Source: a virus
Lineage: Duplodnaviria > Caudoviricetes
Virus record (IMG/VR): IMGVR_UViG_3300032312_000634
Coordinates: 1 to 46,351 of that record
Length of the DNA stretch: 46,351 bases
Direction: 5' to 3' (one strand)
The translations under genes were made by a program, and so were the position numbers. Positions 11,310 to 37,822 of the stretch are shown here, in pieces; position 1 is the first letter of the stretch; each line of letters opens with the position of its first letter. The notes under the pieces were generated by a model, which did no database searches, was not told the origin of the DNA, and saw only the letters and a program-made list of their open reading frames with translations.

Positions 11310-12935
11310 TTAAACTACAGCACCATATAAAGTTCCTGGTGCAGCAATAATTAATTGTTTACCATTTTTTTCGATTGCTTTTCCACCAAGTCCGACTGAA
11401 ACTAAGTCAGTTGCTGGAGTAATAGAACCTACACCTCCAGAAGCACCCCATCCTCCACCGCCACCTCCACCATCGGCAGTTGAAACAGGTGAACCATTGA
11501 CACCTACTTGATCTAAACTTCCACCATTACCACCATTAGCTTGTGCTGGACCACCATTTGCGCCTCCGCCACCTCCGCCGGCACCACCACCAAATCCTCG
11601 AACATCAACACCTGGATTTCCACCATTGCCGCCAGTACCATTTATGATTCTTCCGCCACCGCCACCTGAACCATATTGGCCTCCTGTGTCTGATGTAACT
11701 ATGCTTCCGTTAGAACCAGTATTACCTATTGAACCACCAACACCACCAGCTGCTGTAGATCCACCACCAGAAGATCCTCCCGTAAATGATGCAGAAGCAA
11801 ATATCATCGCATTAGTATCAGATGCTGTGATCTGATGTAAAGAACTAAGTGGTTGAGCACCTTTTAGGCCAATAAAAACAAAAGCTCTTCGACTTTCAGT
11901 ATTAATTCTTGTCCAAGTTTTTGGATTTGTTGTGCGTCCTCCATAATTATTTATTAACTCATTAGCAATTGCTTCTTTCATCTCAGAAGCATCTAAACCG
12001 GCCATTACAATAATTCTACCTATAGGAACATTTTGTAGAGCTAATAATAATGCATTATTATCTCCTGTTTTAAAATCTTCCCATGTGTCATAACATATTG
12101 CAGATTCTACTGCTAAATTTTGTGGATTTAATACTACCATATTAATACCCCTACTAGATAGTGGAGTATCTCCGGTATTTCCTACTTTTGGTGGTTTAAA
12201 TAAAAGTCGTCCTGTTCTATCTAGACAAGTTATTTTAGTGCCATTGATCTTGATATAGGCATTATTTGCAAGAGGAGAAGTGCCACCACTTTCTACACCA
12301 TATGTGGTAGCACCACCACCTACACTACTAACAACGATGCTAGCTGAAGGATTTAAACCAAAACTAGAAGGTGGATTAAGTGGATCAAATCCTCCTGTCA
12401 TAAAAGTTATATTGCTGAGAGTAGCTGGTATCTCAGTTCCTCCTCCTACTCCACCACCAAATACTGATCCGCCATACCCACCACCAGCACCACCGCCACC
12501 TGATCCAGTTGTTGCTCTGTTTGCAGCTGCACCACCACCGCCACCGCCAGCGATGCTGTTAAAATTGAATAGTGTTGTATTAGAACTTATTGACATGGCC
12601 GTTCCGCCATTCGTAGCTGCAACTGTTCCTAATTGACCACCGTAAGTACCACCATCACCACCACGACCCATTACATAACCTTTATTAATGATATAGATGG
12701 TATCGTTAGCATTCCAACCACTAACAGTTAATGCTGGAGTGGAAATACTATTCGAATAAAGATAAATGTTATCAGATATTGTTAATGTTGCTGTAGTATT
12801 TCCAGCTATGTATCCAGCAACTTTTGCTGGATTAAAAGTATATGTTTCTGTATTTGATGTTATATTAGCATACAACAATGGTCCGCTGGTGGGATTAGTT
12901 GAACCACCACTCATTAACATGGAGATTATACTCAT
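11310..12935 (-). CDS. Glycine-rich gp38-like receptor-recognition adhesin with an inserted GG-type (ILEI/PANDER-like) lectin domain
   Basis: 'IYIINKGYVMGRGGDGG...NGGTAM...NFNSIAGGGGGG' and 'GGGGGGGWGASGG...GLGGKAI...GTLYGAV' match the T2/S16 gp38 polyglycine architecture; central 'RGINMVVLN....V.....YDT.......L...L..VP.GRIIVMA..D...RRAFVFIGLKG' matches the GG domain. Confidence 0.75.
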   Translation of the reverse strand: MSIISMLMSGGSTNPTSGPLLYANITSNTETYTFNPAKVAGYIAGNTTATLTISDNIYLYSNSISTPALTVSGWNANDTIYIINKGYVMGRGGDGGTYGGQLGTVAATNGGTAMSISSNTTLFNFNSIAGGGGGGAAANRATTGSGGGGAGGGYGGSVFGGGVGGGTEIPATLSNITFMTGGFDPLNPPSSFGLNPSASIVVSSVGGGATTYGVESGGTSPLANNAYIKINGTKITCLDRTGRLLFKPPKVGNTGDTPLSSRGINMVVLNPQNLAVESAICYDTWEDFKTGDNNALLLALQNVPIGRIIVMAGLDASEMKEAIANELINNYGGRTTNPKTWTRINTESRRAFVFIGLKGAQPLSSLHQITASDTNAMIFASASFTGGSSGGGSTAAGGVGGSIGNTGSNGSIVTSDTGGQYGSGGGGGRIINGTGGNGGNPGVDVRGFGGGAGGGGGGANGGPAQANGGNGGSLDQVGVNGSPVSTADGGGGGGGWGASGGVGSITPATDLVSVGLGGKAIEKNGKQLIIAAPGTLYGAVV

Positions 12936-14184: not shown

Positions 14185-17100
14185 TTATTGTTTCCCTTTT
14201 AGTACATCCACTTCATGTTTCAAATCTATAATTTTTTGATTCAATTCTTTGATTGCTTCAATTAATAATACAGTTAAGTGTTCGTAACGAACGGCCTTAC
14301 TTGATTGTTCTGCACCTAATGGTGTAAAGTCATAGACAACTTCAGGAACAATTGGTTGTATTTCTTGAGCAATAACACCAAGTAGTCTAGTTTTGTTTGT
14401 GTCTGATTTATAGTTATAGTAATAACCATTGATATTTGTTATCTTATCTAGTGCAGTATCAATTCTTACAATGTTCTCTTTCAGGCTAACATCTGAAGGT
14501 GAACCAAACGCAGTCATGTTACCTAATGATACTAAGTTACCTGTTGCATCAAGTGACATTAAGAGACCATTAGTAAATGAATTATTTGTACTCTTATACC
14601 AGTTATGAGTATTACCAGACATCTGATACATAGCACCAACACCGGTCGTCTCTGCTGTCCAACCACTACCATTATACCATGTATTGTTTGAAAAATGTGC
14701 ATAGTTAAGTGCAGATGTTCCACCAGATGATATGTGTGTGTTACCAATCTTTGCAAAACTATTCTGTACTATATTCAACGATCCAGCAGTTGCACTTGCA
14801 GCAACACCTAAACCAACTGAATTAAATTGCGGTAGAGATGTTGTTCCTAATTGTCCAGCAGTAATTATGCCTGTAAGGTTAGCAGTAGGTAAACTTATAG
14901 GTGTATTGGCCGCAGCTGTTACACGACCAGCGGCATCTACTGTAAATGTAGGAACATAACCTGCAGCACCATAAGAGGTTGCAGTTACACCACTACTGTT
15001 TAAGTTTGCTGATGTAAATAGACCAGTAACTCTTGTATTTGCAACTGAGATCAGAGTGTTTGTTACAGAAATAACTCGACCAGCAACATCTACAGCAATG
15101 ACAGGAAGAGTATTGGCAGAACCATAAGTTGTCGCTACAACACCTGTATTGCTTAAGTTTGCTGATGAGAATAAACCGGTAACTTGTGTATTTGCGATTG
15201 ACAGGAAAGTGTTTTGTACAGATGTAATACGACCAGCTGGATCTACAGTAATAACAGCATGGTAAGTAGTATTACCAAAAGTAATACTTGATAAGTTACT
15301 TGTAGCTGTTGCTACACCAGTGTTTGATAAATTTGCAGATAAGAATATACCAGTAACCTGTGTGTTAGCTATGCGTATGAGTGCATTTTGGATTGCTGTG
15401 ATTCTACCTTTGACATCCGTTGTTAAAATAATTGAACTATTTGTGGTAACTACTGAATTATTTGAACTACCATATGTATTGTTTGCAATCAGATTTGGTA
15501 AATCCGCCGTAGCTGCTGTGTTTGAAACAGCAACAATACGACCAGCAGGATCAACTGTTATTACTGGAATAAATGAAGTGTTACCAAAAGTCATACTTGA
15601 AGTATTACCTGTGGCGATTGTTACACCAGTGTTTGTTAAGTTTGCTGATGAGAACAGGCCAGTAACACTAGTGTTTGCAATTATTAAACGATTATTTGTT
15701 ACAGAAAGGATACGACCAGCTGGATCTACCGTGAATGTAGGATAGAATGTGCTGTTACCAAAAGTAATGCTTGATAAGTTAGCTGTAGAAGTAGCTACAC
15801 CTGTATTGCTTAAGTTTGCTGATGAGAATATACCAGTAACCTGTGTATTTGCAACAGATATTAATGTGTTTGTTACACGAGTGATACGTCCTGCTGGATC
15901 AACAGTTATAACTGGAACAGTATTTGCTATACCAAAAGTTATAGGTGATAAGTTAGCTGTAGAAGTAGTCACACCTGTGTTGGACAAGTTGGCTGACGTT
16001 AATACTAAACCGCTAACTGCTGAAGCTTGAATTGTAAATGCTTGATTTGATACAGCAGTAATACGACCAGCAGGGTCAACAGTAATGATAGGGTATGTAC
16101 TTATACTACCAAAAGTAATGGGTGATGCATTTCCTGTGCTGGTTGTTACGCCTGTATTTGATAGGTTTGCTGATGAGAATAAACCTGTAACTCTAGTATT
16201 TGCAACAGTTACAACAATATTGTATGAATTACCAGAATTCAATACATTTTGTACGAATGCCGTAGTGGCAATCATTGTATTTGAAGTTAAATTGGCCGCA
16301 GTTGGTGCTCTTGGAATACCATACAAAACAGTGCTATTTGCCCATGCTACATTACCAATCAGTGCATCAATAACTAGTTGAATAGTATTTGCATTTGCAC
16401 CTGTCCATAATGTATTTGGAGTAAAGGCCGTATTGTTTGCATAATAAGTTGTATTTGCAAACCCATCAACTTCAAATAGTATTTGTGTTCCAACTTTAGG
16501 TGAATTTGTAAACACTCCACCCGTATTAAATGTTACTATCGTATTACTTGTTTCTATATACTCTGTTGGAAACTGTCTTACACCATCTATATAAACTCTT
16601 AATTGTCCTGAACCTGGAGTATACAATGGCACCACATAGGAATTTCCTGCTCCGTTACCTGTAACGAGTGTTCTAGATGTTCTAATTATAGTGCCAGGAG
16701 TTGTACCTGGTGCTGAAACATTATTTGATGATATCCAAAAATAACTTCCTGTTCCATTTGTTGTTAATACTTGCCCAACTCCGGTGGATGGAGGTAACAG
16801 TGTATCTAAAGCACCAGCTGAAGTTGTAGCACCTGTACCACCTTGAGTTACTGCTAATGGATTAGTTAAAGTTAAACCATTAAATGTTGGGCTAGCTGTT
16901 ATTCTCAAATCTTGAGAAGTGTTAACAGTTAATACGTTACCTGAACCTGCAATAGTAACTCCATTATTACTAACAAAAGATATTATTCCATTATTTGGTG
17001 AAGCGGAACCTGTTGTACCAACAACAAAATTTAATGAAGTATTAGCTCTTGCAAATCCAGCATTAGAATAAACACCTACTGTGTTTGCATAGTTGAATGA

Positions 17101-18363
17101 TGCTTCGGCTATATTGTATGCAGCGTTAGCTTGTCCTCTTACCCAAAGATCGAGAGCACCATTCGCAGCGTTAAATGCTAATTGCGCTGTACTTATACCT
17201 AAATTTGCAGCATTATATGCGGCTTGCGCTAGTACATTTGCTGAGTTGGCCTTATCAAATGAAGCATTGGCTTGAATTCTAGCAAAAGTATCGATAGCAT
17301 TATTTGCTATATTTGATCCTGAATTTGCCACATTGGCTGCAGTATTCGCCGCATTAAATGCCGCTTGCGCCAAAGCTTGATTTATTTTGATAGAATTATT
17401 CAGTGTGTTTGCAGCATTAGCACTTGCAGCATAAGTTGCAGTAGAAGATGCACTAAAATTTAAATCAACATCATCAGTTAAAAGTTCTGATGTTAAAATT
17501 CTATAAAAGCTATCGTTTGTATATATTGTTGGAAAGTTTGCTGTTGGACCTAGTGAACTAATTTCCCAATATAATTTAGTGGAATTGTATTTTATTTCTG
17601 CATTAGTACCGCCTGGTCTTACTTTTTTAATAGAAACATTTGATCCGACTGTACCACCTGCAGCAGGAAAAGTAATTGCGGCGTTACCTACAGTTACACC
17701 ATCAAGTGTAAGACCACCAGAACTTGAACCGGATCCTCCAACACTGAAACCACCATCACCAACAACGATACCCTTAACATAGGCCATTGCATTGTTAGCG
17801 TCAATTAGAGAAGTTACATTTGCTGTAACAGTATTCAGTCTTGTATTAATACTAGAGAATGTTGCTGTATTTTTAGCATCAGTATAATCTTTTGCAGCAG
17901 TTAAAGTTAACGCATCATTTGCTTGTAGGAATGTATTTGCTGTATCTACATATGTTGTTATATCACCGCCTGATTGACTGAATAGTTTTCCAGTAATCGT
18001 TAAGTTACCAGTAATTAATGCATTGTTTGAAACAACTAGACCAGTATTTGCAGCATTGGCATATATCACACCACTAGAGGTTAATGCAACTTCTGTATTT
18101 GTTAGTTCAATCTTTCCACCAACACGTAGATTATTCTGTATATAAGCACCAGAACCAATACCTTGTACCTGCATTTGAGATGCAAAAATGGCATTACTTG
18201 TTACCTGTAAACCGAGAGTTGCATCATTCAGGTATAATGTACCTGAATTTTTATTGTATATACCTGTTGCGAAATTATTATTTTCCCTGACGAGTTGGTT
18301 GGTCGTAACCATCCAATCGCCATATGTATTAGCATAACTTAATAGGTTAACTGTATTAGCCAT
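14185..18363 (-). CDS. Long tail fibre with a C-terminal peptidase S74 intramolecular chaperone
   Basis: 'SDVSLKENI..I..ALDKI..ING..Y.YK...LGVIAQEIQPIVPEVV...VRYEHLT.LLIEAIKEL' at 14496-14185; eight ~58-aa 'SANLSNTGV...FG....P.ITVDPAGRI..V.N' repeats; N-terminal 'NTYGDWMVTTNQL'. Confidence 0.88.
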   Translation of the reverse strand: MANTVNLLSYANTYGDWMVTTNQLVRENNNFATGIYNKNSGTLYLNDATLGLQVTSNAIFASQMQVQGIGSGAYIQNNLRVGGKIELTNTEVALTSSGVIYANAANTGLVVSNNALITGNLTITGKLFSQSGGDITTYVDTANTFLQANDALTLTAAKDYTDAKNTATFSSINTRLNTVTANVTSLIDANNAMAYVKGIVVGDGGFSVGGSGSSSGGLTLDGVTVGNAAITFPAAGGTVGSNVSIKKVRPGGTNAEIKYNSTKLYWEISSLGPTANFPTIYTNDSFYRILTSELLTDDVDLNFSASSTATYAASANAANTLNNSIKINQALAQAAFNAANTAANVANSGSNIANNAIDTFARIQANASFDKANSANVLAQAAYNAANLGISTAQLAFNAANGALDLWVRGQANAAYNIAEASFNYANTVGVYSNAGFARANTSLNFVVGTTGSASPNNGIISFVSNNGVTIAGSGNVLTVNTSQDLRITASPTFNGLTLTNPLAVTQGGTGATTSAGALDTLLPPSTGVGQVLTTNGTGSYFWISSNNVSAPGTTPGTIIRTSRTLVTGNGAGNSYVVPLYTPGSGQLRVYIDGVRQFPTEYIETSNTIVTFNTGGVFTNSPKVGTQILFEVDGFANTTYYANNTAFTPNTLWTGANANTIQLVIDALIGNVAWANSTVLYGIPRAPTAANLTSNTMIATTAFVQNVLNSGNSYNIVVTVANTRVTGLFSSANLSNTGVTTSTGNASPITFGSISTYPIITVDPAGRITAVSNQAFTIQASAVSGLVLTSANLSNTGVTTSTANLSPITFGIANTVPVITVDPAGRITRVTNTLISVANTQVTGIFSSANLSNTGVATSTANLSSITFGNSTFYPTFTVDPAGRILSVTNNRLIIANTSVTGLFSSANLTNTGVTIATGNTSSMTFGNTSFIPVITVDPAGRIVAVSNTAATADLPNLIANNTYGSSNNSVVTTNSSIILTTDVKGRITAIQNALIRIANTQVTGIFLSANLSNTGVATATSNLSSITFGNTTYHAVITVDPAGRITSVQNTFLSIANTQVTGLFSSANLSNTGVVATTYGSANTLPVIAVDVAGRVISVTNTLISVANTRVTGLFTSANLNSSGVTATSYGAAGYVPTFTVDAAGRVTAAANTPISLPTANLTGIITAGQLGTTSLPQFNSVGLGVAASATAGSLNIVQNSFAKIGNTHISSGGTSALNYAHFSNNTWYNGSGWTAETTGVGAMYQMSGNTHNWYKSTNNSFTNGLLMSLDATGNLVSLGNMTAFGSPSDVSLKENIVRIDTALDKITNINGYYYNYKSDTNKTRLLGVIAQEIQPIVPEVVYDFTPLGAEQSSKAVRYEHLTVLLIEAIKELNQKIIDLKHEVDVLKGKQ
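14900..16200 (-). repeat. Eight ~58-aa (174-nt) coding repeats in the S74 fibre
   Basis: The TVD(P/V/A)(A/K)GR(I/V) motif recurs 8 times; DNA copies at about 15540, 15714 and 15888 are 174 nt apart. Confidence 0.85.
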
Positions 18364-18584: not shown

Positions 18585-20768
18585 TTAAATTCCTGTTCCT
18601 GATGGTAAAGCAAGAGCACGAATGTCGGTTAAGAATGGGCAAATTGTACCGTCAGCTGCCGACATAACGACTTTGATTGCAAATTGACTAAACTGTGTAT
18701 ATGTTTGGCCGCTTGTACTAGTATATGAGATATAATTATCTGGATCATTATTTGTACCAGGTGCCCATTCAAATTCAATTAAATTATCTTTTGAAGATGA
18801 GTATATATTAGACCCTTTGATTTGTGTCATTAATTGCCAGTTTTGGTCATCAAAAGGTTGGTCATCATTTCTATTTAGAATCTTATAGTAAACATAGGCC
18901 TCTGTACCAAATGGTTTGTAAGCAGTGTAGAACACTCTTAGGTCACCAGAGTCATTGTTTGGTGCCAAAACTACTTTCTTAGTGAAGTATTTAGCGAGTG
19001 AGTTACCACCACGTGATGATGTTTCACCATAAACAACTACATTTGCAGGTGTTGTGTTTGCACCATACACTGTGATCGTTGGTGATTTTATGTAACCGGA
19101 ACCACCATATGTAACATATACAGATGATACCACATTTGAAGTTCCATTATTTGCAACCGTTACACTAACAACTGCACTGTCTGTTCCAACGTCTGGTGCT
19201 GAGATAGTTGCATAAGTATTTGCAGCATCATTATAACCTGAACCTGTATTTGCAACAGAGATTACAGCATTTGATAAACTCATATTATTGATAATGTACT
19301 GTATGTTATACATCGTAGTACCATCATCCGAAATAATAGGACTTAAATTTGGATCACTAGATTGTAATGTTGCATACATTGAGAATGTAGCTGGAGAATT
19401 TTTTAACAATACACGCTGGCCTTTACCATCATCAAACTCAATATTATCTGGTGTTGGTGAACCGTATTTACCTGGAAAAGCTTGTATTGGTCCAATAGGT
19501 GTGTTTCCGTCAGCAAGTATTGCTTCATATGAATATTGTATTGATGTTCCTGATGGTGTAAAATCTGTTGTGGTAAGATTAATAGCATCAGACCATGTTG
19601 TTTCTACAAAATTATCTGTTAGGTTAGTAACGTTGTTCGCATCGATTGAATGTTGAATGTCATTAGTACCAAGTTTTCTACGTGGCAACCCTTTAGGTAT
19701 TGAGAATTGAACATATGGTGTAATAGATGTATCGAATACACATCTATCAATAATAAACATCATTGATTTTGTTTGGTCGGCAGTCCAAGTAATAGAGTTC
19801 TGCGATTCAAACAATGCACCAACATAAGGTGCACCACCAACTTTAGTAGGTGATGCTGGATCTGGATCTGTAGGTAAAGCTTTTGCAGTTGAAGGCACAG
19901 CAATCTTATTTTGTTGTGCATAATACAATACGTAATCAGGTGTAGTTGTTTCTACCAGAATCGCATACATAACTCCGCCTTGAATATAGACGGGTGACTC
20001 GAACATGAACTCTGTGTAAGTTGAAGAATCTAAAAAGTGGGGTTTTTTGGAAGTGTTAACATTTTCAGGTGATAACACCACAGTAGAGTGATCTAACTTT
20101 ACACCATTTGGATATCCATTTAGTGTACCAATAATAGAAACTTTAACTGGAATGCTTGTATCTGGTTTTGAAAAGAAAAATAATTTAACAGAAGAAATAA
20201 ACAAACCATTAGGATAATTATCTTTATCTAATATGAATGTTTGAGCTACTGGATCCCATGGCTGATATGTTGTTATCGTACTTATTAATTGTTTTTCTCT
20301 TTGTCTAACTTGTGTAAATGCAGTTGAAGCTGAGTCTATTGAAGGACCAAATTCTAATTTTTGTGATGTTGTAGAAAGACCTGATGCTGTAAATGTTCCT
20401 TCAGCATAGGCCGTTGCTGTCATAGGGTCTGCATCAACAGTTCTGTTGTCAACTCTAAATATTCTTTGTCCTGTTTGAAATGTTCCTCCAGGAACATTAA
20501 AAATGCCAACAAAATTACCTGCTTCATCTGTTGATAATTTAGGTAAACCTTCACCTGTTTTTACTGCTGTGGTAAGGTCTGTAATATCACCAACAAGATT
20601 GTATTGAGAGGTTACATCACCGACAGCCTCATTATAACCCAATGATACATTAATTGGTGTTTGTAATGTAACGATTTTCGTGGATGCATCATAAGCAATA
20701 ATATTTGCAGTTCTATTGTAATACTCAGTTATTATTCGTGTTGGTGATGTTGTATAAGTATATGGCAT
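18585..20768 (-). CDS. C-terminal half of a split VrlC/DUF4815-type baseplate structural protein
   Basis: 'L.TDEAG...G.F.VP...FQTGQR.FR', 'WDPVAQTFI...YPNGLFISSVKLFF.SKP', 'T.F.F.SPVY', 'G.LFESQN..TWTADQ' and 'F.QFAIKVVM......P...D.RALAL' are hallmark C-terminal motifs of this family. It has its own GGAAG RBS. Confidence 0.82.
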   Translation of the reverse strand: MPYTYTTSPTRIITEYYNRTANIIAYDASTKIVTLQTPINVSLGYNEAVGDVTSQYNLVGDITDLTTAVKTGEGLPKLSTDEAGNFVGIFNVPGGTFQTGQRIFRVDNRTVDADPMTATAYAEGTFTASGLSTTSQKLEFGPSIDSASTAFTQVRQREKQLISTITTYQPWDPVAQTFILDKDNYPNGLFISSVKLFFFSKPDTSIPVKVSIIGTLNGYPNGVKLDHSTVVLSPENVNTSKKPHFLDSSTYTEFMFESPVYIQGGVMYAILVETTTPDYVLYYAQQNKIAVPSTAKALPTDPDPASPTKVGGAPYVGALFESQNSITWTADQTKSMMFIIDRCVFDTSITPYVQFSIPKGLPRRKLGTNDIQHSIDANNVTNLTDNFVETTWSDAINLTTTDFTPSGTSIQYSYEAILADGNTPIGPIQAFPGKYGSPTPDNIEFDDGKGQRVLLKNSPATFSMYATLQSSDPNLSPIISDDGTTMYNIQYIINNMSLSNAVISVANTGSGYNDAANTYATISAPDVGTDSAVVSVTVANNGTSNVVSSVYVTYGGSGYIKSPTITVYGANTTPANVVVYGETSSRGGNSLAKYFTKKVVLAPNNDSGDLRVFYTAYKPFGTEAYVYYKILNRNDDQPFDDQNWQLMTQIKGSNIYSSSKDNLIEFEWAPGTNNDPDNYISYTSTSGQTYTQFSQFAIKVVMSAADGTICPFLTDIRALALPSGTGI

Positions 20769-20793
20769 TTGTTTCTTCCAGTAAGACTATTGT

Positions 20794-23700
20794 TTATTTA
20801 TTCTTAATAATATAAGCTATTTTACCTACAATATTGAAGGTTGTCATTAAGAACTTCTTAGTTATTGGACTTTTATCATCTCTGAATCCTTTACCAATTA
20901 AATATTTACCTATCCATATATTCATATCTCCACATAATTTATTTAATATGTAAGCACCATACGTTATATGTTTACCTGAAGATGTTATTTCTAACAATAT
21001 ATCAGAGATAGTTTGTTTAGTAAATACTCCTTTTTCATAGTTCAATCTCATTACACCACCATCACCAACAATAGATGTTGTTCCATAACCATTAACGATG
21101 TATGTACCATCACCATCAACCCACAAATTGTAAACCATATCACCTTTAGCTGGTGTTTTGACTGCATCATCCAATTGATTCATGTGTCCTAACCATGGAT
21201 ATAAATTCATCATTTCATCAGCAATAGGACAACTTAATTGTCCATCAATGTAAATTGGATGGTTAATTGTTGCGAATGGTTTTAGTTTTTTGTTTGGTGA
21301 ATATAGTTCCATAAATGTAGAATCTAATGTTTCTTCTACAAACATTACAACATTCAACATTTTCTTATTGTGGTTGAATACTACATCACCAACTTTAACG
21401 TCTTTGATTTTCTTTTCTGTTCCATCGGCCATTAATATCAAAGTGTCTTTGGTGAAACATCTTCCACGGCGTCCCGGAGCAGGTGGAGGTGGAACATAAG
21501 TTGCGGTTTCTACTGTATATGAATAACAATATTTTGATTGTATTGCAAGTTTGGCACCAACATAATAACCATCAACATCTGAAGCGTTAGCATCTAATGC
21601 AAGTCTTGTTACACCAGTGAACCATGCACCACCTTTTGGCATAACTATTTGTTGTGCAACATCATCATAACTTGATGCTGGTGGTGATGTAGATTGGTAA
21701 ACTATTTCACCCGCAGAATTTTTACCTACAACGGCAACTGCACCTGGACTACCAGCTGTTGTCGTTGCAAACACTCTGATAATGTGTGAACCAGCAGTTA
21801 AATACTTGGTATTAGATGTTGTTGTTTTTGCTGCATTTTGACCAGTGTGGGTAATAATAGTATTTCCCGCATCAATTCCACCAACTCTAAGTGTTCCTGT
21901 ACCACTAGCACTCATTACGAATGTATATGTGCCGGCCTCTTCAACAGATACAACAAAAGTTAAATCAAATGTTCCTGTTTTTTGCAAATCACCCCAAACA
22001 CCATATTGATTTAAGAAAGTTCCCCAATCATTTGCAGATTGTATTTTGTAGATATTTGATTCTGGACCACCACCAGCTGGGTTATATTTTCCACCAACAC
22101 CAGTAATTACACCTGATGTGTGTAATGGAGTTACAGAAGCTGATGCATTAATGAATCCGTATGCTGTATTAGATGCTGCTGCATTATACTGGCCTGCTGA
22201 GTCAAACACAGCATTTTGAATTATATTGGTTGTTGTTGATTTTTGAGCACCTAATAATGCAGAGATATACAATCGAGCACTTGTACTATTTGGATAGTTG
22301 TACATACCAACAACTCTACCAAGTTTATTGAATTGATTTCCTGCATAGAATCCTACAATATCATTTTCTTTGAATTTACCTCCAACATTTACAAGTTCAA
22401 TAGTGTTTGGTGAAGTCATATAATCATTTGCTTTTATACCATCAAACCAACATGACACTTCACTATTGATTAGTAGGCCTTTAGCTCTTACTATAATTTG
22501 TTGTGGTCTAATGTATGGTAATATAGCAATGTTTGTTAGATAACCATTGTTACTACCAACAGTAGATGATACTTGACTGTAACCAGCTTTAGTAACATTA
22601 CCTAATTGACTTGCGTATGTGTCGGTTGTTGTTGCAATAAATCCACGACCAGTAGTTACTGTTGATGTAGATTCTGAAGTTCCAGGAATTGTTGCAAAGT
22701 CTCCTGAATTCAGTAAATTAACACCATTTGTTTGTTGATAAACCTTTAATGATGGGTCTGTAACAAGAATAGCTGGTGCTTGGTTGTTATCTACCCAGTT
22801 ATCCATTGGAGGATTTAAACTAACAATACCTTGTGCTACAGCGACAGCAAATGGGTTTACACTTACCGTACTTGTTGCAATTGGTTGTACAACAACATTT
22901 GTTGTTGTGTATGGTAGAGTAAATATGTTTGTTTGAGTACCACCAATACTAGATACTGAGAAATAGTTTGTTTTACTTAATGTACCCAATGAATTTAATA
23001 CAACTGGATTTTGTAATGCAAAGTTTTCTACAATATTTAAAGGTCCAAGTCTTTTCCTTCTTGTATTCAAATTGGCTTGAAAGTCTGGATTAGCCGTATC
23101 AGCAGTTGAGTATGATGAGAAGTCATCAACTAAGATACCATTTTTAAATCTATTCAGACCATTAACATCTTGCACTTGTAATGCTTGTGCATTTGTTTCC
23201 AACAAACTCAATGCAGAATAATACTCTAAGTTATTAACACGAGTTTGTAGATCGGTGATATCTCTCTTAATCCAATTTTTGTGTAATACTTTTTCGATTG
23301 AGAGATTTGCATCATCTTGTCCTGGTGCTTCACCTGGAATATAAGCTGTATATGGATCCAATGTAAGGTTAGACAATACTAATGCACCATCAGGTTCGGC
23401 CGGAAAAAGAGGACTAGTAGAGGGAGTACCTTTTATGATTTTGAATTCTTTATCTTTTGTCAGAATCAGTTTATCTTTTCTGGCCAAGTAATAATTATAA
23501 TCACTCGTATATTCGGATAATGGTATTGGTATCAATATACCAGCATCTGAAGATAATGGATTGCCCGTGTACTCAAATTCCATTTCTGCTTGTGCAGATT
23601 TTCTAACAGGTCTGAAGTCTAGACAGTCCGACAATCTATAAACTGTACCACCTTTACTTGTATATGTTGGAATAGATTGATATTCTTCTGGTGAAATTGA

Positions 23701-26253
23701 TACGCCGCCAGATGAAGCAGGAAGATAAGAGTTTACACTGAAATAACCATCTCCACCAGTGTGTTCATAGTAATCAAACACAATCAATATATTACCATTT
23801 GGTATAGATGCACCAGCCACCAACTGAACGGCCGCATGGTCATACATCGTATCTCTTTGGCCATTGTCTAATACAAATAATGATGTGATGTCATATGATG
23901 GATCAATCATCATAGCACTAGTTACTGCTGTTCCAGGTGCTCTTGAATTAACTACTTTAACAATTTTCTTAACATCAGAAACATACAATGAATTAATTGA
24001 TTTAATTGCATTGTGTTTGATGTAAACTTGGCCTTTATTCAAATCAATATACGTACTGGAATTGATTGTGTTGCTTACACCAGTTGTACTTGCAAATGTA
24101 GTATTACCAAGAACAAGATTTTTTGTCTTTAATATAGTAGTTGAATCATCTGCATTGGAGATTACAACATCAGCAATAACATCAACAACAGTACCACTGG
24201 CATAAGTTGTTGAACTTAGTGTGGCAGCTTTCTTATCATTGGAAATTGTTATTGTATTTCCTGAGGTTGCAAAATCTAGAATCGCACCTGTTGATTGATT
24301 AATAACAATGAAGTTTTGTTTCACTACATCAGAGGACAATTGGCCTGTTCCTAAGAAAACTTGTGGTGTGCCTCCAGGTATAGTTATTTGTGAAGAAACA
24401 CCACCACCACTATTAGTTAATGTTCTTGATCTGAATACTTTTGTTGAGTTGTAATCACTATTTGAAATGTTCGCAACATAAGGATAACCAATTGGAAATA
24501 TAAGTTCTGGTACCTTAGGATTGGTTAATATTGTATCACCAGTTATTAAGCCATCAGTCTTGCCAGAATTGGAAATATTGGCCGATGCAATAATAGTGTT
24601 ACTACTATTTCTTATCACAAAAGAATCAATGTCTTTAACTTTAAAGGCAAAAGAGAAAGTCGATGTATTGGTAACAGGTACAGTAAATGGTGAATCTACG
24701 GTTGCTGTTTTTGTTGTTCCGTTATATGCTACGATTCTTCGTCTGTCTCCTACACTTGCACCACCGGTGATGGTAATTGTTGAACCATAATAGGCGTTAG
24801 ATACATTCGAGAATGTAGCATTAGTATCTGTAAATTGAATTGTTGTTGCTGTACCCGTTGCTGCGGTTCCATTTAGAGTTGTTGTGAATATATCAGTAAC
24901 ATAGGCCTTATAAGTATAAGTTGATGTGTCCGTATCTGAAGTGCTTGATTCATATTGTAAGTTTCTAATATATGCTGAACCAACTAAGGTAGAGGTATAT
25001 GTTCTAGCATTTCCTGATTGTATGTTGGCACTAGTTACACAATGCAGATCAATCTTAGGCATTGTAGTAATATCAATCTTACCTTTTACATTGTTTACGG
25101 TGAAATAACTACCATAATCAAAAAACACTGGATTGTTTGTAATCGAATCGGTTGTTCTAGCTCTATCATTCTCTAGTAATAGGTCTGATTGATTTTCGAT
25201 TCTGTAACCGTGTACATATGCAACACCTTTACCAATTCTAAGGTCAAATTTGGTGTCGTCTACATTTACTACTGGTGTAACTTTAAATTCATTGACAACA
25301 TAGTCACCATTGGATTCATAGTCACGTTTGGCAAAGTAATCATCAATAACAGAATAAACTGTGCCGTCTACTTGTTTAACTATAACACCGTTTTCAATTC
25401 TTAATAATTCAACAAATGAATCATCGTCACCAAGTTTTAATTGTTTAGAAACAAGTGTTAAAGTTATCTGATATCTGTCTGCACCTGGTGCTTGATAGTT
25501 GGATGCACCAACAGCCGGATCAAGCAAAGAAGTATCACCCAAATAGGTAACAATATTTTCAGAAATATCCAAACCAACACGAAACGATGGCGTATTGCCA
25601 TAAGGGTCTAAGATTGTGGTTTGTGGTAATACTGATACAAAGTTACCAACTGAATATTTGGAATAAGAACCATCTGGATTTGGTGTAGATGAGTTACTGT
25701 ATCCATTTACGATGTAGAACACACCTTCAGAAATCGATGCGGTTGAGGCCTTACCTGAACATGTAGTTCCGCCTGGAACACCAATAGTTAATGCAACTGT
25801 GCTTGATCCATCAACGCAGGACACGGTATTTGCATCAGTAAACTGAGCACCTGAATAGTAATTAATGATAATGGTAGGTGGTTCGTTCGTATCGATTAAT
25901 GAACCCTCTTTATATGCCACAACTTTTGCACGAACTGTGCCAGTTGAATCGGTAACTTCTTTGTTTAAGAAATCTGAAACGTTAATATCCACATTTTGAA
26001 ATTGTGGTTGTAATTTGACGTAGGAACACTCCAGATTAGTGGTAACTTTACCACCGGTAACTGGAGTGTTCTGAGAGAAAATGTGGTCGGCAAAGTTGGA
26101 GATTTGATTTTGTAGAATACTTTGTGACTGAGTTAATTCTCTAGCTTGAACGGCTGAACCTGGTTTGAATAGTATACGATGAAAATTTTTACTTGGATCA
26201 AAATCATCATAGTATGGATCAACATTAAAATTGATTGCTTCTTTAATAGCCAT
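20794..26253 (-). CDS. N-terminal half of a split VrlC/DUF4815-type baseplate protein with a PA14-like domain and a C-terminal Hint domain plus tail
   Basis: 'NFNVDPYYDDFDPSKNFHRILFKPG.AVQARELTQ.QSILQNQI', 'NYQAPGADRY', 'RVNNLEYYSALSLLE...RFKNGILVDDF'; Hint starts at Cys1599 'CFTKDTLILMADG..K.I.DV.VGD.V'. Confidence 0.88.
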   Translation of the reverse strand: MAIKEAINFNVDPYYDDFDPSKNFHRILFKPGSAVQARELTQSQSILQNQISNFADHIFSQNTPVTGGKVTTNLECSYVKLQPQFQNVDINVSDFLNKEVTDSTGTVRAKVVAYKEGSLIDTNEPPTIIINYYSGAQFTDANTVSCVDGSSTVALTIGVPGGTTCSGKASTASISEGVFYIVNGYSNSSTPNPDGSYSKYSVGNFVSVLPQTTILDPYGNTPSFRVGLDISENIVTYLGDTSLLDPAVGASNYQAPGADRYQITLTLVSKQLKLGDDDSFVELLRIENGVIVKQVDGTVYSVIDDYFAKRDYESNGDYVVNEFKVTPVVNVDDTKFDLRIGKGVAYVHGYRIENQSDLLLENDRARTTDSITNNPVFFDYGSYFTVNNVKGKIDITTMPKIDLHCVTSANIQSGNARTYTSTLVGSAYIRNLQYESSTSDTDTSTYTYKAYVTDIFTTTLNGTAATGTATTIQFTDTNATFSNVSNAYYGSTITITGGASVGDRRRIVAYNGTTKTATVDSPFTVPVTNTSTFSFAFKVKDIDSFVIRNSSNTIIASANISNSGKTDGLITGDTILTNPKVPELIFPIGYPYVANISNSDYNSTKVFRSRTLTNSGGGVSSQITIPGGTPQVFLGTGQLSSDVVKQNFIVINQSTGAILDFATSGNTITISNDKKAATLSSTTYASGTVVDVIADVVISNADDSTTILKTKNLVLGNTTFASTTGVSNTINSSTYIDLNKGQVYIKHNAIKSINSLYVSDVKKIVKVVNSRAPGTAVTSAMMIDPSYDITSLFVLDNGQRDTMYDHAAVQLVAGASIPNGNILIVFDYYEHTGGDGYFSVNSYLPASSGGVSISPEEYQSIPTYTSKGGTVYRLSDCLDFRPVRKSAQAEMEFEYTGNPLSSDAGILIPIPLSEYTSDYNYYLARKDKLILTKDKEFKIIKGTPSTSPLFPAEPDGALVLSNLTLDPYTAYIPGEAPGQDDANLSIEKVLHKNWIKRDITDLQTRVNNLEYYSALSLLETNAQALQVQDVNGLNRFKNGILVDDFSSYSTADTANPDFQANLNTRRKRLGPLNIVENFALQNPVVLNSLGTLSKTNYFSVSSIGGTQTNIFTLPYTTTNVVVQPIATSTVSVNPFAVAVAQGIVSLNPPMDNWVDNNQAPAILVTDPSLKVYQQTNGVNLLNSGDFATIPGTSESTSTVTTGRGFIATTTDTYASQLGNVTKAGYSQVSSTVGSNNGYLTNIAILPYIRPQQIIVRAKGLLINSEVSCWFDGIKANDYMTSPNTIELVNVGGKFKENDIVGFYAGNQFNKLGRVVGMYNYPNSTSARLYISALLGAQKSTTTNIIQNAVFDSAGQYNAAASNTAYGFINASASVTPLHTSGVITGVGGKYNPAGGGPESNIYKIQSANDWGTFLNQYGVWGDLQKTGTFDLTFVVSVEEAGTYTFVMSASGTGTLRVGGIDAGNTIITHTGQNAAKTTTSNTKYLTAGSHIIRVFATTTAGSPGAVAVVGKNSAGEIVYQSTSPPASSYDDVAQQIVMPKGGAWFTGVTRLALDANASDVDGYYVGAKLAIQSKYCYSYTVETATYVPPPPAPGRRGRCFTKDTLILMADGTEKKIKDVKVGDVVFNHNKKMLNVVMFVEETLDSTFMELYSPNKKLKPFATINHPIYIDGQLSCPIADEMMNLYPWLGHMNQLDDAVKTPAKGDMVYNLWVDGDGTYIVNGYGTTSIVGDGGVMRLNYEKGVFTKQTISDILLEITSSGKHITYGAYILNKLCGDMNIWIGKYLIGKGFRDDKSPITKKFLMTTFNIVGKIAYIIKNK
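20795..20802 (-). promoter_or_regulatory. Putative late promoter (AATAAATA) overlapping the stop codon of the Hint-containing gene, driving the second half
   Basis: AATAAATA on the - strand, 26 nt upstream of the ATG at 20768, followed by a GGAAG RBS (20775-20779). Confidence 0.55.
21073..21459 (-). other. Hint (Hedgehog/intein) domain, splicing-incompetent
   Basis: Block A CFTKDTLILMADG; block B ATINHPIY (TxxH); block F VYNLWVDGDGTYIVNG; the terminal positions read T-S-I where inteins have H-N-[C/S/T]. Confidence 0.88.
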
Positions 26254-34801: not shown

Positions 34802-35662
34802 CTAAGGATACAACCTTGCCTTGAGTTTATCTGAACCTATGTAATCATTTATTAATAACGTCTGAGTGTTACTCATAGCACCTTTTGAGAATCTATGTAA
34901 AAATGCATTTTCTGTTGCTACCTGAAATGATTTTCTAAAAAATGACCAATCTTCTGTTCTTCTCGTAAGTACAAAATTATATACACTGTCTAAACTGTTA
35001 ACCATTTGTTGTAGTCTGGTGTTAGACAGTTGACAAGTGTTGGCACCAGTAGGAAATCCAGGAACGAATATTGTATTATCAATGATTTCTTGATTAAATA
35101 GTGAAATTACATCATTATTTGCTTTTAAATCGGGTTCGATAAACAAACTGGTCATTGCACCCAAGGCACCCACAGTATTTTGAATACCGTTTGTTTGATT
35201 TAAAAGAACAATCATCTGATTACCTAAAGCCATAATAGAATCTTGTGTGGGTATATTAGGGTCTTGAAATACATTTGCAGCCGTACCAGAAACATTTGCG
35301 GTATGAGAAATAAATCTATTCATTTCTGCAATTCTGAGAGAAGCAGCTGTTTTTGTCAAATTATTGGCAATATCACTGTTTGCAAAACTAATAAAATATG
35401 GACCGCTTTGAGTATTTGCTGTTAATGCCAACGTGGCCATACTAGAAATTATGTCGTTTGATACATTTAGAACAGGATTTCTGTAATAACTAGTTGAATC
35501 TATAGGACCATCGGCCATATCAGTAATCATCCACTGATCTGGAGCATCTATTTTTGAATAATTAGTTAAACTATTTTTAGCATCTGGTGATAGATTGATT
35601 ACATCTCCAAATTTGGTACTATCAAAATTAAAACCTATTCTTCCAAAAACTGTATTAGCCAT
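34802..35662 (-). CDS. Hypothetical protein (likely helical), between the gp5 C-terminal gene and gp25
   Basis: 286-aa ORF with a GGAG RBS; no motif recognised. Confidence 0.7.
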   Translation of the reverse strand: MANTVFGRIGFNFDSTKFGDVINLSPDAKNSLTNYSKIDAPDQWMITDMADGPIDSTSYYRNPVLNVSNDIISSMATLALTANTQSGPYFISFANSDIANNLTKTAASLRIAEMNRFISHTANVSGTAANVFQDPNIPTQDSIMALGNQMIVLLNQTNGIQNTVGALGAMTSLFIEPDLKANNDVISLFNQEIIDNTIFVPGFPTGANTCQLSNTRLQQMVNSLDSVYNFVLTRRTEDWSFFRKSFQVATENAFLHRFSKGAMSNTQTLLINDYIGSDKLKARLYP

Positions 35663-35676
35663 TATATCTCCATTAT

Positions 35677-36537
35677 TTAAACATCAGGTAACAAATTGCC
35701 ACCAGCATCAGGATGTGAGTGAGCGTTATATTTCATTCTCAACATTGCCAAGGCGCCATGATAATCAAGAACCATAATTGTCTTAACTATGCCTATTGAA
35801 GCCGATACACCAATAAAATTTGGTGCAGTAACGGTTCCTGTAGCTGTAATGCATCCAGGTGGCGCAAGTCCACCCATGTCATATGTAGTCATTCCCGGAT
35901 ACACTGCACCAACGTTAATTCCACCTAGAGTTTCAAAACCACCCATTGTAAAACATTTTCCACCCGCTGTCAAGTATGTTGTAGCCATGATACTTGAACC
36001 ACCCATGATTGTGCCACTAACTCTTAAATCACCTGTTATGTTTACTGTACCACCGGTAATCAAATTGATATTTGGTGGAAGTATACTTAATGGACTACCT
36101 GCACTAATATTAATATCTGAACCAGCAGTAACGTCTAGTTGTCCTTCAACAACAACGTTTGCATCACCATTAACAGTAGCTCTTAAACTTTCACCAATCG
36201 AGGCGTAAACAGTACCCCAAACATCAAGTTTAGCATCAGCTTTAACAACAATTGAGCATACTCCACCAATCGTTACTTCATTATTATTGATGACTACAGT
36301 AAAGTTATTACCGGCAGTAACTTGTTTAGTTGATCCATTTGGTTCCATCATCCAATATGTTTGATTCTCACCAAAGGCTTTACCGTGTTGAATTCTAATT
36401 GACTCATTACCAGGAGTATCATCCATCATAACAAAATGGCCTGATTCTGTTTGTTCTACATTGATATAGGGAAAATTTCCTGAATCATCTATACCAGTAG
36501 ATGCATAACTACCAAAGGGGAATCTAAATGTTGACAT
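35677..36537 (-). CDS. gp5: gp5 C-terminal part: central tail spike beta-helix with an HxH apex
   Basis: 'PYINV.QTESGH...MDDTPGNE.IRI.H...TY....PNG' followed by V.G 8-residue-type beta-helix repeats; ends 'YNAHSHPD'. Confidence 0.8.
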   Translation of the reverse strand: MSTFRFPFGSYASTGIDDSGNFPYINVEQTESGHFVMMDDTPGNESIRIQHGKAFGENQTYWMMEPNGSTKQVTAGNNFTVVINNNEVTIGGVCSIVVKADAKLDVWGTVYASIGESLRATVNGDANVVVEGQLDVTAGSDINISAGSPLSILPPNINLITGGTVNITGDLRVSGTIMGGSSIMATTYLTAGGKCFTMGGFETLGGINVGAVYPGMTTYDMGGLAPPGCITATGTVTAPNFIGVSASIGIVKTIMVLDYHGALAMLRMKYNAHSHPDAGGNLLPDV

Positions 36538-36545
36538 ACTGTTCC

Positions 36546-37469
36546 TTAAAATAAACTCACGTTTACAACTGGTTTTGGTGGACTGTTTGTAATGTTTGAA
36601 AATGTTGATGATAATAAATCTGTAGCCACATCAATACCTGTTGTTAAATTTCCTACATCTAATTGTATTTGTTCAAAACCGGCAACGACTGCATTGGTTG
36701 CTTGTTCTGCTAATGTTAAGTTTTTTTGTAGATTACTTATTTCTCTTAAAAGCCTAGCAGTGTTATCTTCAGGCAATAAAGCAAAAGTTAACGCATTTTG
36801 AATAGCATTTCTCAATGCAGTTGCACATTCAGCAAAAGCTTGTGCAAATATTACTGGTAAAGAAGCTATAAATCTAAGTAATACACTAACAAATTGTTGT
36901 ACTTGTACTATCAACAAAGCAAGAACAACATATGTTTTAATAATTCTATTAATTTCTCTAATTTTTTCTAAAATATATTTTGCAGCATTTTTAATTGTAT
37001 CTACTAAAGGACCACTAGCAACAGAAAAAGCACCTTCAATTTTTTGTCTAATATCAGAAAGAAATTTTTGTACTTCAGCACTTTTAAATAATATTGCCAA
37101 TTCTAATGCTGGTGAACCTAGTGCTAAATTCGGAACTTCAATTCCATTCATGGTTGTAATTGTTCTTCTTTTTGGTTGAACTACACCAACAGGTTCACAA
37201 ATATGGTGTTGATTTCTATTTGCAAAATTAATACCAGTAGCAATAGTTTTACCTCGAACATTATAACTCTGTACTCCACGAGCAATGTTGGACACCATGG
37301 ACTCTCCTGCGGCCGCAACATCACCCAAATAACTAGCTTTAGGAGGATCTGTTTCGACTGCACCTGCATTATGCGAATATGTTTCTGGTGCTGGTCTAAC
37401 TAATGAACCAGTTACTTCATCAGTTTTAAATAATATGGTTTCCTGTAGTGATGTATCCGTATTTGCCAT
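36546..37469 (-). CDS. Helical protein with a long hydrophobic segment, lying between the two gp5 parts
   Basis: Probable start MANTDTSL at 37469 with a GAGGT RBS; 'YVVLALLIVQVQQFVSVLLRFIASLPVIFAQAFAEC' followed by coiled-coil-like helices. Confidence 0.72.
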   Translation of the reverse strand: MANTDTSLQETILFKTDEVTGSLVRPAPETYSHNAGAVETDPPKASYLGDVAAAGESMVSNIARGVQSYNVRGKTIATGINFANRNQHHICEPVGVVQPKRRTITTMNGIEVPNLALGSPALELAILFKSAEVQKFLSDIRQKIEGAFSVASGPLVDTIKNAAKYILEKIREINRIIKTYVVLALLIVQVQQFVSVLLRFIASLPVIFAQAFAECATALRNAIQNALTFALLPEDNTARLLREISNLQKNLTLAEQATNAVVAGFEQIQLDVGNLTTGIDVATDLLSSTFSNITNSPPKPVVNVSLF

Positions 37470-37480
37470 TTTAACTACCT

Positions 37481-37822
37481 CTATTTTGTGTTGATACCAA
37501 GGCCTGACGTTTGTGCATTTAGACCGTTGAATACTCCTAACATACAAGGAGCTTGCCCACCCATACCGTCAAGAAAAAATCCCATCACCCAATCACCAAC
37601 TCTAGGTGAAGAAACTTTACCTCTGGAATTTATTGGTAGTATTGCTTGAGCCCATGGTAAATCTTTTTCTGGAATTTTTTCAAAGGATTCTTTTCCACCA
37701 TCACCATGCCAACCAAATATTCTAACTTGACATCTGCCTGCACCTAAAGGATCAACTCGATTTACAATTTCACCAACCCACCAGACAAAACCATCTTTGC
37801 CTGCAAAATTAATTTCTTTCAT
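37481..37822 (-). CDS. gp5: gp5 N-terminal OB-fold domain as a stand-alone gene
   Basis: 'GF.WW.GE...RVDPLG.GRC.VRI.GWH.......IP..DLPWA....P.........P..GDWV.GFFLDG...Q.P..LG' matches the T4 gp5 OB domain; stop after 113 aa. Confidence 0.9.
   Translation of the reverse strand: MKEINFAGKDGFVWWVGEIVNRVDPLGAGRCQVRIFGWHGDGGKESFEKIPEKDLPWAQAILPINSRGKVSSPRVGDWVMGFFLDGMGGQAPCMLGVFNGLNAQTSGLGINTK

What the first reader, a model, noticed from the sequence alone, without database searches (positions are those of the whole stretch)
18585..26253. VrlC/DUF4815 protein split mid-motif into two separately expressed genes at the Hint insertion
Seen: the 1819-aa ORF carries the family's N-terminal motifs and the 727-aa ORF its C-terminal motifs (WDPVAQTF…RALAL). 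ORF1 has an intact internal motif 'SNVSNAYYGSTITITGG…RRRIVAYNGTTKTATVDSPF'. A second copy is cut in two: 'SDVDGYYVGAKLAIQSK' just before the Hint in ORF1, and 'RTANIIAYDASTKIVTLQTPI' near the start of ORF2. The flanking segments 'YCYSYTVETATY' and 'PYTYTTSPTRIITEYY' both look like alternating beta-strands. ORF2 has its own AATAAATA box and GGAAG RBS. Inference: the two chains rebuild one domain by strand complementation, probably a long hairpin opened at its tip so that the Hint-generated C-terminus sits at the end of a protrusion. An alternative is Hint-mediated ligation of ORF1 to the N-terminus of ORF2.
Basis: partly seen in the sequence, partly recalled or inferred. Interest (0 to 1): 0.82.

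Follow-up and report, generated by a model that had tools for sequence, protein, structure and literature searches.

The report
Self-cutting cap on split baseplate protein
A T4-like phage encodes its giant VrlC baseplate protein as two genes cut at the tip of a predicted hairpin, and the first piece ends in a Hint domain that likely clips itself off; relatives cut the same protein at this and two other places and put other end-caps, or none, there, so the Hint is one exchangeable cap and not the cause of the split.

Summary
ORF1 (1819 aa) and ORF2 (727 aa) are the N- and C-parts of one VrlC/DUF4815 baseplate protein. They are cut inside the second copy of a small repeat and separated by a real 25-nt gap with a late-promoter-like box and an RBS.

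The Hint is not the cause. Of 64 distinct stop-ended ORF1 tails cut at this site, 48 have no Hint: 30 carry an undescribed helical cap, 5 an S74 chaperone, 13 another tail with no recognised domain (mostly short). Unsplit relatives show the cut is a variable hairpin tip. Other lineages cut VrlC at two further sites, some at both, with the same caps.

The Hint keeps Cys1 and TxxH but lacks His-Asn, so it likely only cleaves itself off. Nothing supports ligation to ORF2.

The helical cap has a Cys at one of two positions in 216 of 216 aligned sequences, has no structural match, and also ends unrelated virion proteins.

The scan found the split and swappable caps before on other DNA (e1-5739353, e1-5739359). 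The short notes shown did not mention the three cut sites, re-fusion or this Cys pattern.

The parts
20794..26253 (-). ORF1: N-part of VrlC/DUF4815 baseplate protein plus C-terminal Hint cap, 1819 aa
24649..24888 (-). first, intact copy of the small beta repeat (aa ~456-535)
22783..23595 (-). DUF4815 core (aa 887-1157); aa 909-1158 match the 1152-aa ORF65 chain of phage 812
21532..21615 (-). N-half of the second repeat copy (aa 1547-1574)
21493..21531 (-). outgoing strand of the predicted hairpin (aa 1575-1587)
   Evidence: pairing inferred
21460..21492 (-). Pro-rich, Gly/Arg spacer (aa 1588-1598); predicted C-terminus of mature ORF1
   Evidence: cleavage inferred
21073..21459 (-). Hint domain, Cys1599 to ~1727; Cys1 and TxxH kept, terminal His-Asn absent
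20797..21072 (-). 92-aa helical tail of the Hint cap (five predicted helices, no transmembrane-level hydropathy)
20795..20802 (-). AATAAATA late-promoter-like box overlapping ORF1's last codons and stop
20769..20793 (-). 25-nt gap with GGAAG ribosome-binding site (20775-20779)
18585..20768 (-). ORF2: C-part of VrlC, 727 aa
20715..20768 (-). ORF2 aa 1-18, returning strand of the predicted hairpin (conserved M-x-Y-x-Y start)
   Evidence: pairing inferred
20646..20714 (-). ORF2 aa 19-41, C-half of the second repeat copy

Best explanation
The phage encodes its VrlC (tripod-like) baseplate protein as two genes whose chains likely reassemble by pairing ORF1's last strand with ORF2's first strand, and the Hint at the end of ORF1 likely cuts itself off at Cys1599 to leave a short Pro/Gly/Arg tail at the hairpin tip. 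Shown: the split, its position inside the second repeat copy, the conserved upstream box and RBS, and the exchange of caps among relatives. Inferred: (1) ORF2 aa 1-41 completes the repeat and the hairpin non-covalently; (2) the Hint does an N-to-S acyl shift at Arg1598-Cys1599 and the thioester is resolved by water or a small nucleophile, releasing Hint plus helical tail in one piece, since the C-terminal cleavage residues are missing; (3) the cut turns a variable surface loop into a free, variable C-terminus, and the cap is an accessory that shields or positions that tip during assembly and is then shed.
For: Unsplit relatives join the two strands directly (L004, L008, L120: short turn) or through variable loops. 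In 55 of 55 distinct split junctions a 13-residue ORF1 strand goes with a 22-residue ORF2 lead and a 12-residue strand with a 15-17-residue lead. Both ORFs map colinearly on one solved chain: aa 909-1158 to 390-609 and the ORF2 profile to 734-944, E 5e-16. The Hint model has pLDDT 91.7 and best matches BIL2 6Y75 and Vint 8R2C. Cys1 and the Thr and His of TxxH are invariant in 15 of 15 aligned caps, which end in NG(Y/F)GT(T/S) where inteins have His-Asn. TxxH is present in 114 of 114 further carriers. A known self-cleaving module, Peptidase_S74, fills the same slot (4 of 4 tested over the Pfam cut-off). L178, in the same clade as the S74 forms, stops at about the point where S74 would cut. Three near-complete genomes (G001, G003, G005) have neither Hint nor helical cap anywhere, so these two caps are dispensable.
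Against: No cleavage or assembly has been observed; there is no protein data. The strand-length coupling rests on only 2 changes on the tree (sign test p 0.5). The region around the cut has no counterpart in the solved 812 chain, so its place on the baseplate is unknown. A cap that is only shed does not explain why the helical tail behind the Hint is conserved (41-86% identity over the module). Thirteen of 64 tails have no recognised processing domain, so processing is not needed for the split to work.
Confidence: 0.6

Rival explanations
1. Hedgehog-like adduct transfer: the Hint thioester is attacked by a specific nucleophile (a lipid, a small molecule or a side chain of another virion protein) held by the helical tail, so the hairpin tip is covalently modified.
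For: Hint followed by a conserved helical region is the Hog/adduct-recognition layout (PMC2362128, passages). The tail is conserved and amphipathic. Atlas features match Vint-type Hints at 0.94-0.95. The Hint-less helical cap always keeps a Cys near its start (216 of 216).
Against: The residue before Cys1 varies (G, R, N, S, F, C). S74, which is known only to cleave (recalled), and plain stop codons fill the same slot. No acceptor has been identified. The post-Hint tail was not matched to the helical cap (hhalign probability under 1%).
Confidence: 0.22
2. The caps are semi-selfish or neutral cassettes that recombine into Gly-rich linker DNA at the ends of virion genes and persist because they remove themselves; the split needs no function beyond tolerance.
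For: Cap classes need 19 changes on a 99-row tree. L028 is 89% identical to the window over ORF1 aa 1-1300 yet has a different cap. L040 has four Hints in tandem. The Hint cap sits on 11 clusters of non-VrlC proteins.
Against: There is no homing endonuclease or other mobility gene at the site (25-nt gap). VrlC was cut at three separate sites and the new ends carry similar Pro/Gly/acidic tails even without caps, which suggests selection for free tips.
Confidence: 0.12
3. The Hint ligates ORF1 to the N-terminus of ORF2, restoring one chain.
For: A thioester at Arg1598 would lie near ORF2's N-terminus if the hairpin forms (inference).
Against: Of 64 tails at this site, 48 lack a Hint. ORF2 residue 2 is P in the window and A, P, S, T or G among Hint-bearing forms, never C. 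The same Hint cap ends non-VrlC proteins such as gp5 hubs.
Confidence: 0.04
4. Assembly error, pseudogene or RNA splicing across the gap.
For: None found.
Against: 122 of 197 loci (61 distinct tails) are split at the same place. Independent contigs cross the gap without an indel, and no joint across the gap appears in any of the four runs, the one RNA run included (contigs only, so weak on splicing). No Rfam hit.
Confidence: 0.02

Closest known systems
VrlC/DUF4815 (PF16075, phrog_358); phage 812 ORF65, 1152 aa (PDB 9EUF, 9EUK, 9TIC), taken here to be the tripod protein gp119 of PMC13433997
   Same: Both ORFs match this one chain in order. The gene lies after the gp6/gp8-type wedge genes and before tail-fibre genes.
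   Different: The window's protein is about twice as long, is made as two chains, and has a repeat, a hairpin and a cap that the 812 chain lacks. Equating ORF65 with gp119 is my inference from the entries' contents; the passages I read give no length.
Hedgehog/Hog autoprocessing domain (Hint plus sterol- or adduct-recognition region) and Vint
   Same: C-terminal Hint with Cys1 and TxxH, no His-Asn, followed by a helical region; fold matches 8R2C (E 1.4e-7) and 1AT0 (E 1.4e-3).
   Different: Scores are below the Pfam cut-offs for Hint (21.2 of 29.7) and Vint (22.8 of 27). No VWA or Vwaint domain precedes it. It sits on a phage virion protein and no adduct is known.
Bacterial intein-like (BIL) and pretoxin Hint domains
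   Same: Best fold match is BIL2 (6Y75, E 4.9e-8). The first three Hints of L040 end in His-Asn and the L040 tail scores over the PT-HINT cut-off.
   Different: The window's Hint has lost the C-terminal His-Asn and carries a fixed helical tail, not a toxin.
Peptidase_S74 intramolecular chaperone of tail fibres and spikes
   Same: A self-removing C-terminal module of virion proteins (function recalled); it fills the same slot in 5 of 64 distinct tails.
   Different: Different fold and chemistry; absent from the window's ORF1.
Fractured genes with split inteins (PMC2677866, search listing only)
   Same: A phage gene in two parts with an intein-type domain at the break.
   Different: No C-intein on ORF2, no endonuclease between the parts, and most split relatives have no Hint.

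Membership tests
VrlC/DUF4815 | PF16075 above curated cut-off | tested here: met
   210.6 bits against 30 on ORF1
VrlC/DUF4815 | N- and C-terminal family regions in order | tested here: met
   phrog_358 4-1258 on ORF1 and 1299-1614 on ORF2; both on the 812 chain
VrlC/DUF4815 | trimer on the baseplate | not testable with these tools
   known for phage 812 tripods (PMC13433997 passages); no virion data here
Hint superfamily | Hint fold with N-terminal Cys and block B TxxH | tested here: met
   PF05203 32.7 bits against 32.1
Cis-splicing intein | terminal His-Asn followed by Cys/Ser/Thr and the rest of the host protein | tested here: not met
   ends NGYGTTS, then a 92-aa tail and stop
Split intein / fractured gene | second gene starts with the C-intein | tested here: not met
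   ORF2 begins with the repeat's own strands; no Pfam match on ORF2
Hedgehog/Hog domain | Hint without His-Asn followed by a helical region | tested here: met
Hedgehog/Hog domain | PF01079 above cut-off | tested here: not met
   21.2 bits against 29.7
Hedgehog/Hog domain | transfer of a sterol or other adduct | not testable with these tools
   needs biochemistry
VWA-Vint proteins | VWA and Vwaint domains before the Hint | tested here: not met
   no such Pfam match on ORF1; definition from PMC2362128 passages
VWA-Vint proteins | Vint-type Hint | tested here: inconclusive
   PF14623 22.8 bits against 27; Atlas 0.95; 8R2C rank 3
CFI-box-CTERM (considered for the relatives' helical cap; resemblance recalled) | match to NF041770 | tested here: not met
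   no hit in 13 tails, 55 weak homologues or 3 genomes; a remote link was not tested profile against profile
Peptidase_S74 (relatives' cap) | PF13884 above cut-off | tested here: met
   4 of 4 tested, 25.5-27.4 bits against 22

The most novel reading that the evidence does not exclude
Phages have a general end-capping system for virion proteins. Genes are cut again and again at loop tips to create free Pro/Gly-rich C-termini, which are processed by exchangeable caps: a Hedgehog-like Hint, an S74 chaperone, or a previously undescribed all-helical domain whose invariant N-terminal Cys makes it a new kind of self-cleaving or thioester-forming module. At least the Hint form would attach an adduct to the baseplate tip.
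Probability: 0.25. Interest if true: 0.85.

Novelty: new variant of a known kind. Interest (0 to 1): 0.62.

Why it matters
VrlC/tripod proteins are thought to contact the host and trigger tail contraction. Repeated cutting at loop tips, re-fusion and fast cap exchange point to an unrecognised way of varying and processing these tips. The helical cap is a widespread family with no Pfam, NCBIfam or PDB match that fills the slot of two autoprocessing domains. That makes it a concrete candidate for new self-processing chemistry, testable in two cultured phages that carry it.

Tried and rejected

My first guess that the post-Hint tail is the same domain as the Hint-less helical cap: not supported (hhalign probability under 1% against all three classes; shallow profiles).

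CFI-box-CTERM identity of the helical cap (recalled resemblance): no hit and no paper holds the term.

Fold search of the helical cap model (pLDDT 85.8): best VIA Z 4.0 among 48,161 chains and no BFVD hit at E under 0.001; this does not show a new fold.

I first read the 430-aa capped proteins as unrelated carriers; they are middle pieces of VrlC. A DUF4214 label for L173's tail was not confirmed.

The 130-190-aa middle genes of the L226 lineage had no phrog_358 hit (2 of 2 tested), so their VrlC origin is unproven.

The IQ-TREE run did not finish; only FastTree was used. One search had parsing errors and was redone. The Cys count was biased by its pattern and was replaced.

The sigma-70 scan gave fewer sites than shuffles (7 against 17.1). 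No cultured phage among 50,697 records carries the window's Hint cap.

Literature searches listed nothing on split VrlC or Hint caps on virion proteins; I saw listings with abstract openings and, for seven papers, passages only. The library lacks most subscription journals; the HMO-2011 genome paper was not held; no supplements were read.

Full report
Setting. The window is a 46-kb fragment of a T4-like phage (CheckV 27% complete). It holds gp32, hub, tube, gp48, gp53, gp5 pieces, gp25, gp6, gp8 and tail-fibre genes. Its gp32 is 57% identical to marine cyanophages at best. Two of the runs laid on it are freshwater metagenomes of other studies.

Observation. ORF1 (20794-26253, 1819 aa) and ORF2 (18585-20768, 727 aa) match phrog_358 at profile 4-1258 and 1299-1614. 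Both map in order on the 1152-aa DUF4815 chain of phage 812. I take that chain to be the tripod protein, described as a baseplate trimer with putative receptor-binding domains whose change of shape helps trigger contraction (PMC13433997, passages; the identification is my inference). VrlC is reported as an abundant virion protein tied to double-ringed baseplates (PMC4621102 and PMC7029224, passages). The internal repeat is real: a profile of the first copy hits an intact second copy in 9 unsplit relatives and ORF2 aa 20-41. The gap is real. A TAAATA box precedes ORF2 in 29 of 53 distinct upstream regions, against 1.3% of coding windows and 8.8% of shuffles. Its likeness to the T4 late promoter is recalled.

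The split does not depend on the Hint. Scans of viral and metagenome contigs gave 197 classifiable loci including the window; one further locus had no match. Of these, 122 are split, 57 unsplit, 12 end with the contig and 6 stop with no ORF2 on the contig. Many are repeats of the same contig, and all were found with window-derived queries, so the shares are not population frequencies. Among 64 distinct stop-ended tails, 16 carry the Hint cap, 30 a helical cap (18 CCVVAT, 8 KIIC, 4 RVIC type), 5 an amphipathic stretch plus Peptidase_S74, and 13 another tail with no recognised domain, mostly short and several Trp-rich. L028, 89% identical over ORF1 aa 1-1300, has the helical cap. On a FastTree of 99 rows the unsplit state needs 5 changes (at least 4 forced by starred branches) and the seven states 19. 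L102 and L004/L008/L120 are unsplit yet nested among split forms, and L102 keeps the Pro/Gly spacer, which reads as re-fusion (the tree is unrooted and FastTree only).

The cut is a hairpin tip. Unsplit relatives close the same two strands with a short turn, or insert loops of up to about 170 residues. In split forms the length of ORF1's last strand and of ORF2's lead go together in 55 of 55 distinct junctions, but this reflects only 2 changes on the tree (p 0.5).

The Hint. The model is confident (pLDDT 91.7) and matches BIL2, Vint and inteins. Cys1 and TxxH are invariant; the His-Asn end is absent in 15 of 15. From established Hint chemistry (recalled), this allows N-terminal cleavage but not splicing or C-terminal cleavage. 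ORF2 offers no conserved nucleophile. The same Hint-plus-tail module was found on 114 longer proteins, 101 within 15 residues of the C-terminus. Of the 114, 46 were not matched to VrlC and form 11 clusters; these include gp5 hub proteins and Gly-rich tail proteins, though at least one of the 46 (P0314) has a weak phrog_358 hit.

Other cut sites. On the phrog_358 axis the window's cut lies between 1258 and 1299. L199 is cut after about 1201 with a Hint cap. L200 is cut between 1410 and 1424, so that its second gene starts at the DP-x-AQ motif region. Relatives cut at that third site carry Hint, helical or acidic/Gly-rich ends. L203, L206, L215, L219 and L220 are cut twice, with a middle gene ending in a Hint (3) or a helical cap (2). 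In one search, of 74 distinct first ORFs 29 were unsplit, 25 split, 12 stopped with no downstream match to my profile and 8 were open.

The helical cap. CCVVAT, RVIC and KIIC types link by profile (81% and 95%). There are 257 longer homologues and 109 representatives at 50% identity. Of 96 with a full start, 94 are C-terminal and 71 follow a Gly-rich run. Of 229 examined, 216 aligned over the start motif. All 216 have Cys at column 8 or column 11 (70 first only, 135 second only, 11 both), with an almost invariant GY further on. The model is all-helical with no PDB match. At least three non-VrlC carrier groups take either this cap or the Hint. Two cultured phages carry it, on other proteins: SynMITS9220M01 gene 028 and HMO-2011 gene 49. 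Whether it cleaves is untested.

Verdict. The best reading is a two-chain VrlC rebuilt by strand pairing, with an accessory Hint cap that sheds itself (0.6). Adduct transfer (0.22) and neutral cassette (0.12) remain open; ligation to ORF2 is unlikely (0.04). My paper searches listed no description, with the limits of that library. The scan reached the same core reading earlier on another genome; I had recorded my reading before seeing those notes, and they are not independent support. Class: new variant of a known kind; interest 0.62.

Noticed in passing
L040:7973-10630: Four Hint domains in tandem in the same slot; the first three end in His-Asn-Lys like splicing-type Hints, the last is the window-type cap.
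   Followed up: partly
L061, L062, L172, L186, 113-nt gap after ORF1: RVIC-type caps lack a hydrophobic helix, and a 38-aa hydrophobic ORF (hydropathy 2.55) overlaps their stop codon.
   Followed up: partly
L127, L174, L176, L184, L192, L178: A long amphipathic stretch precedes S74; L178 has the same kind of stretch and stops without S74.
   Followed up: partly
L050, L053, L054, L115, L116, L182 (split); L022, L024, L045 (unsplit): Trp-rich tips recur in both short tails and closed loops, suggesting a surface- or membrane-contacting tip.
   Followed up: no
P0052: A His-Asn-ending Hint directly followed by a KIIC-type helical cap.
   Followed up: no
P0264, P0281, P0306: gp5 hub family proteins ending in the window-type Hint cap.
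   Followed up: partly
window 34802-37547 (-): Only a 286-aa gp5 piece (35677-36537, phrog_430 331-464) was recognised, flanked by two ORFs with no Pfam or PHROG match; ORFs between 37826 and 37481 were not all scanned.
   Followed up: no
window 14185-18363 (-): 1392-aa tail fibre ending in its own Peptidase_S74.
   Followed up: no
window 11310-12935 (-): gp38-like adhesin region joined to an ILEI domain.
   Followed up: no
window 43433-45358 (+): 641-aa protein with a Peptidase_M23 domain next to the baseplate hub gene.
   Followed up: no
L293:5627-7519 and L294:3066-5354: Cultured phages with the helical cap: after a long poly-Pro/poly-Arg run in SynMITS9220M01, and on the gene two after the portal in HMO-2011.
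   Followed up: partly
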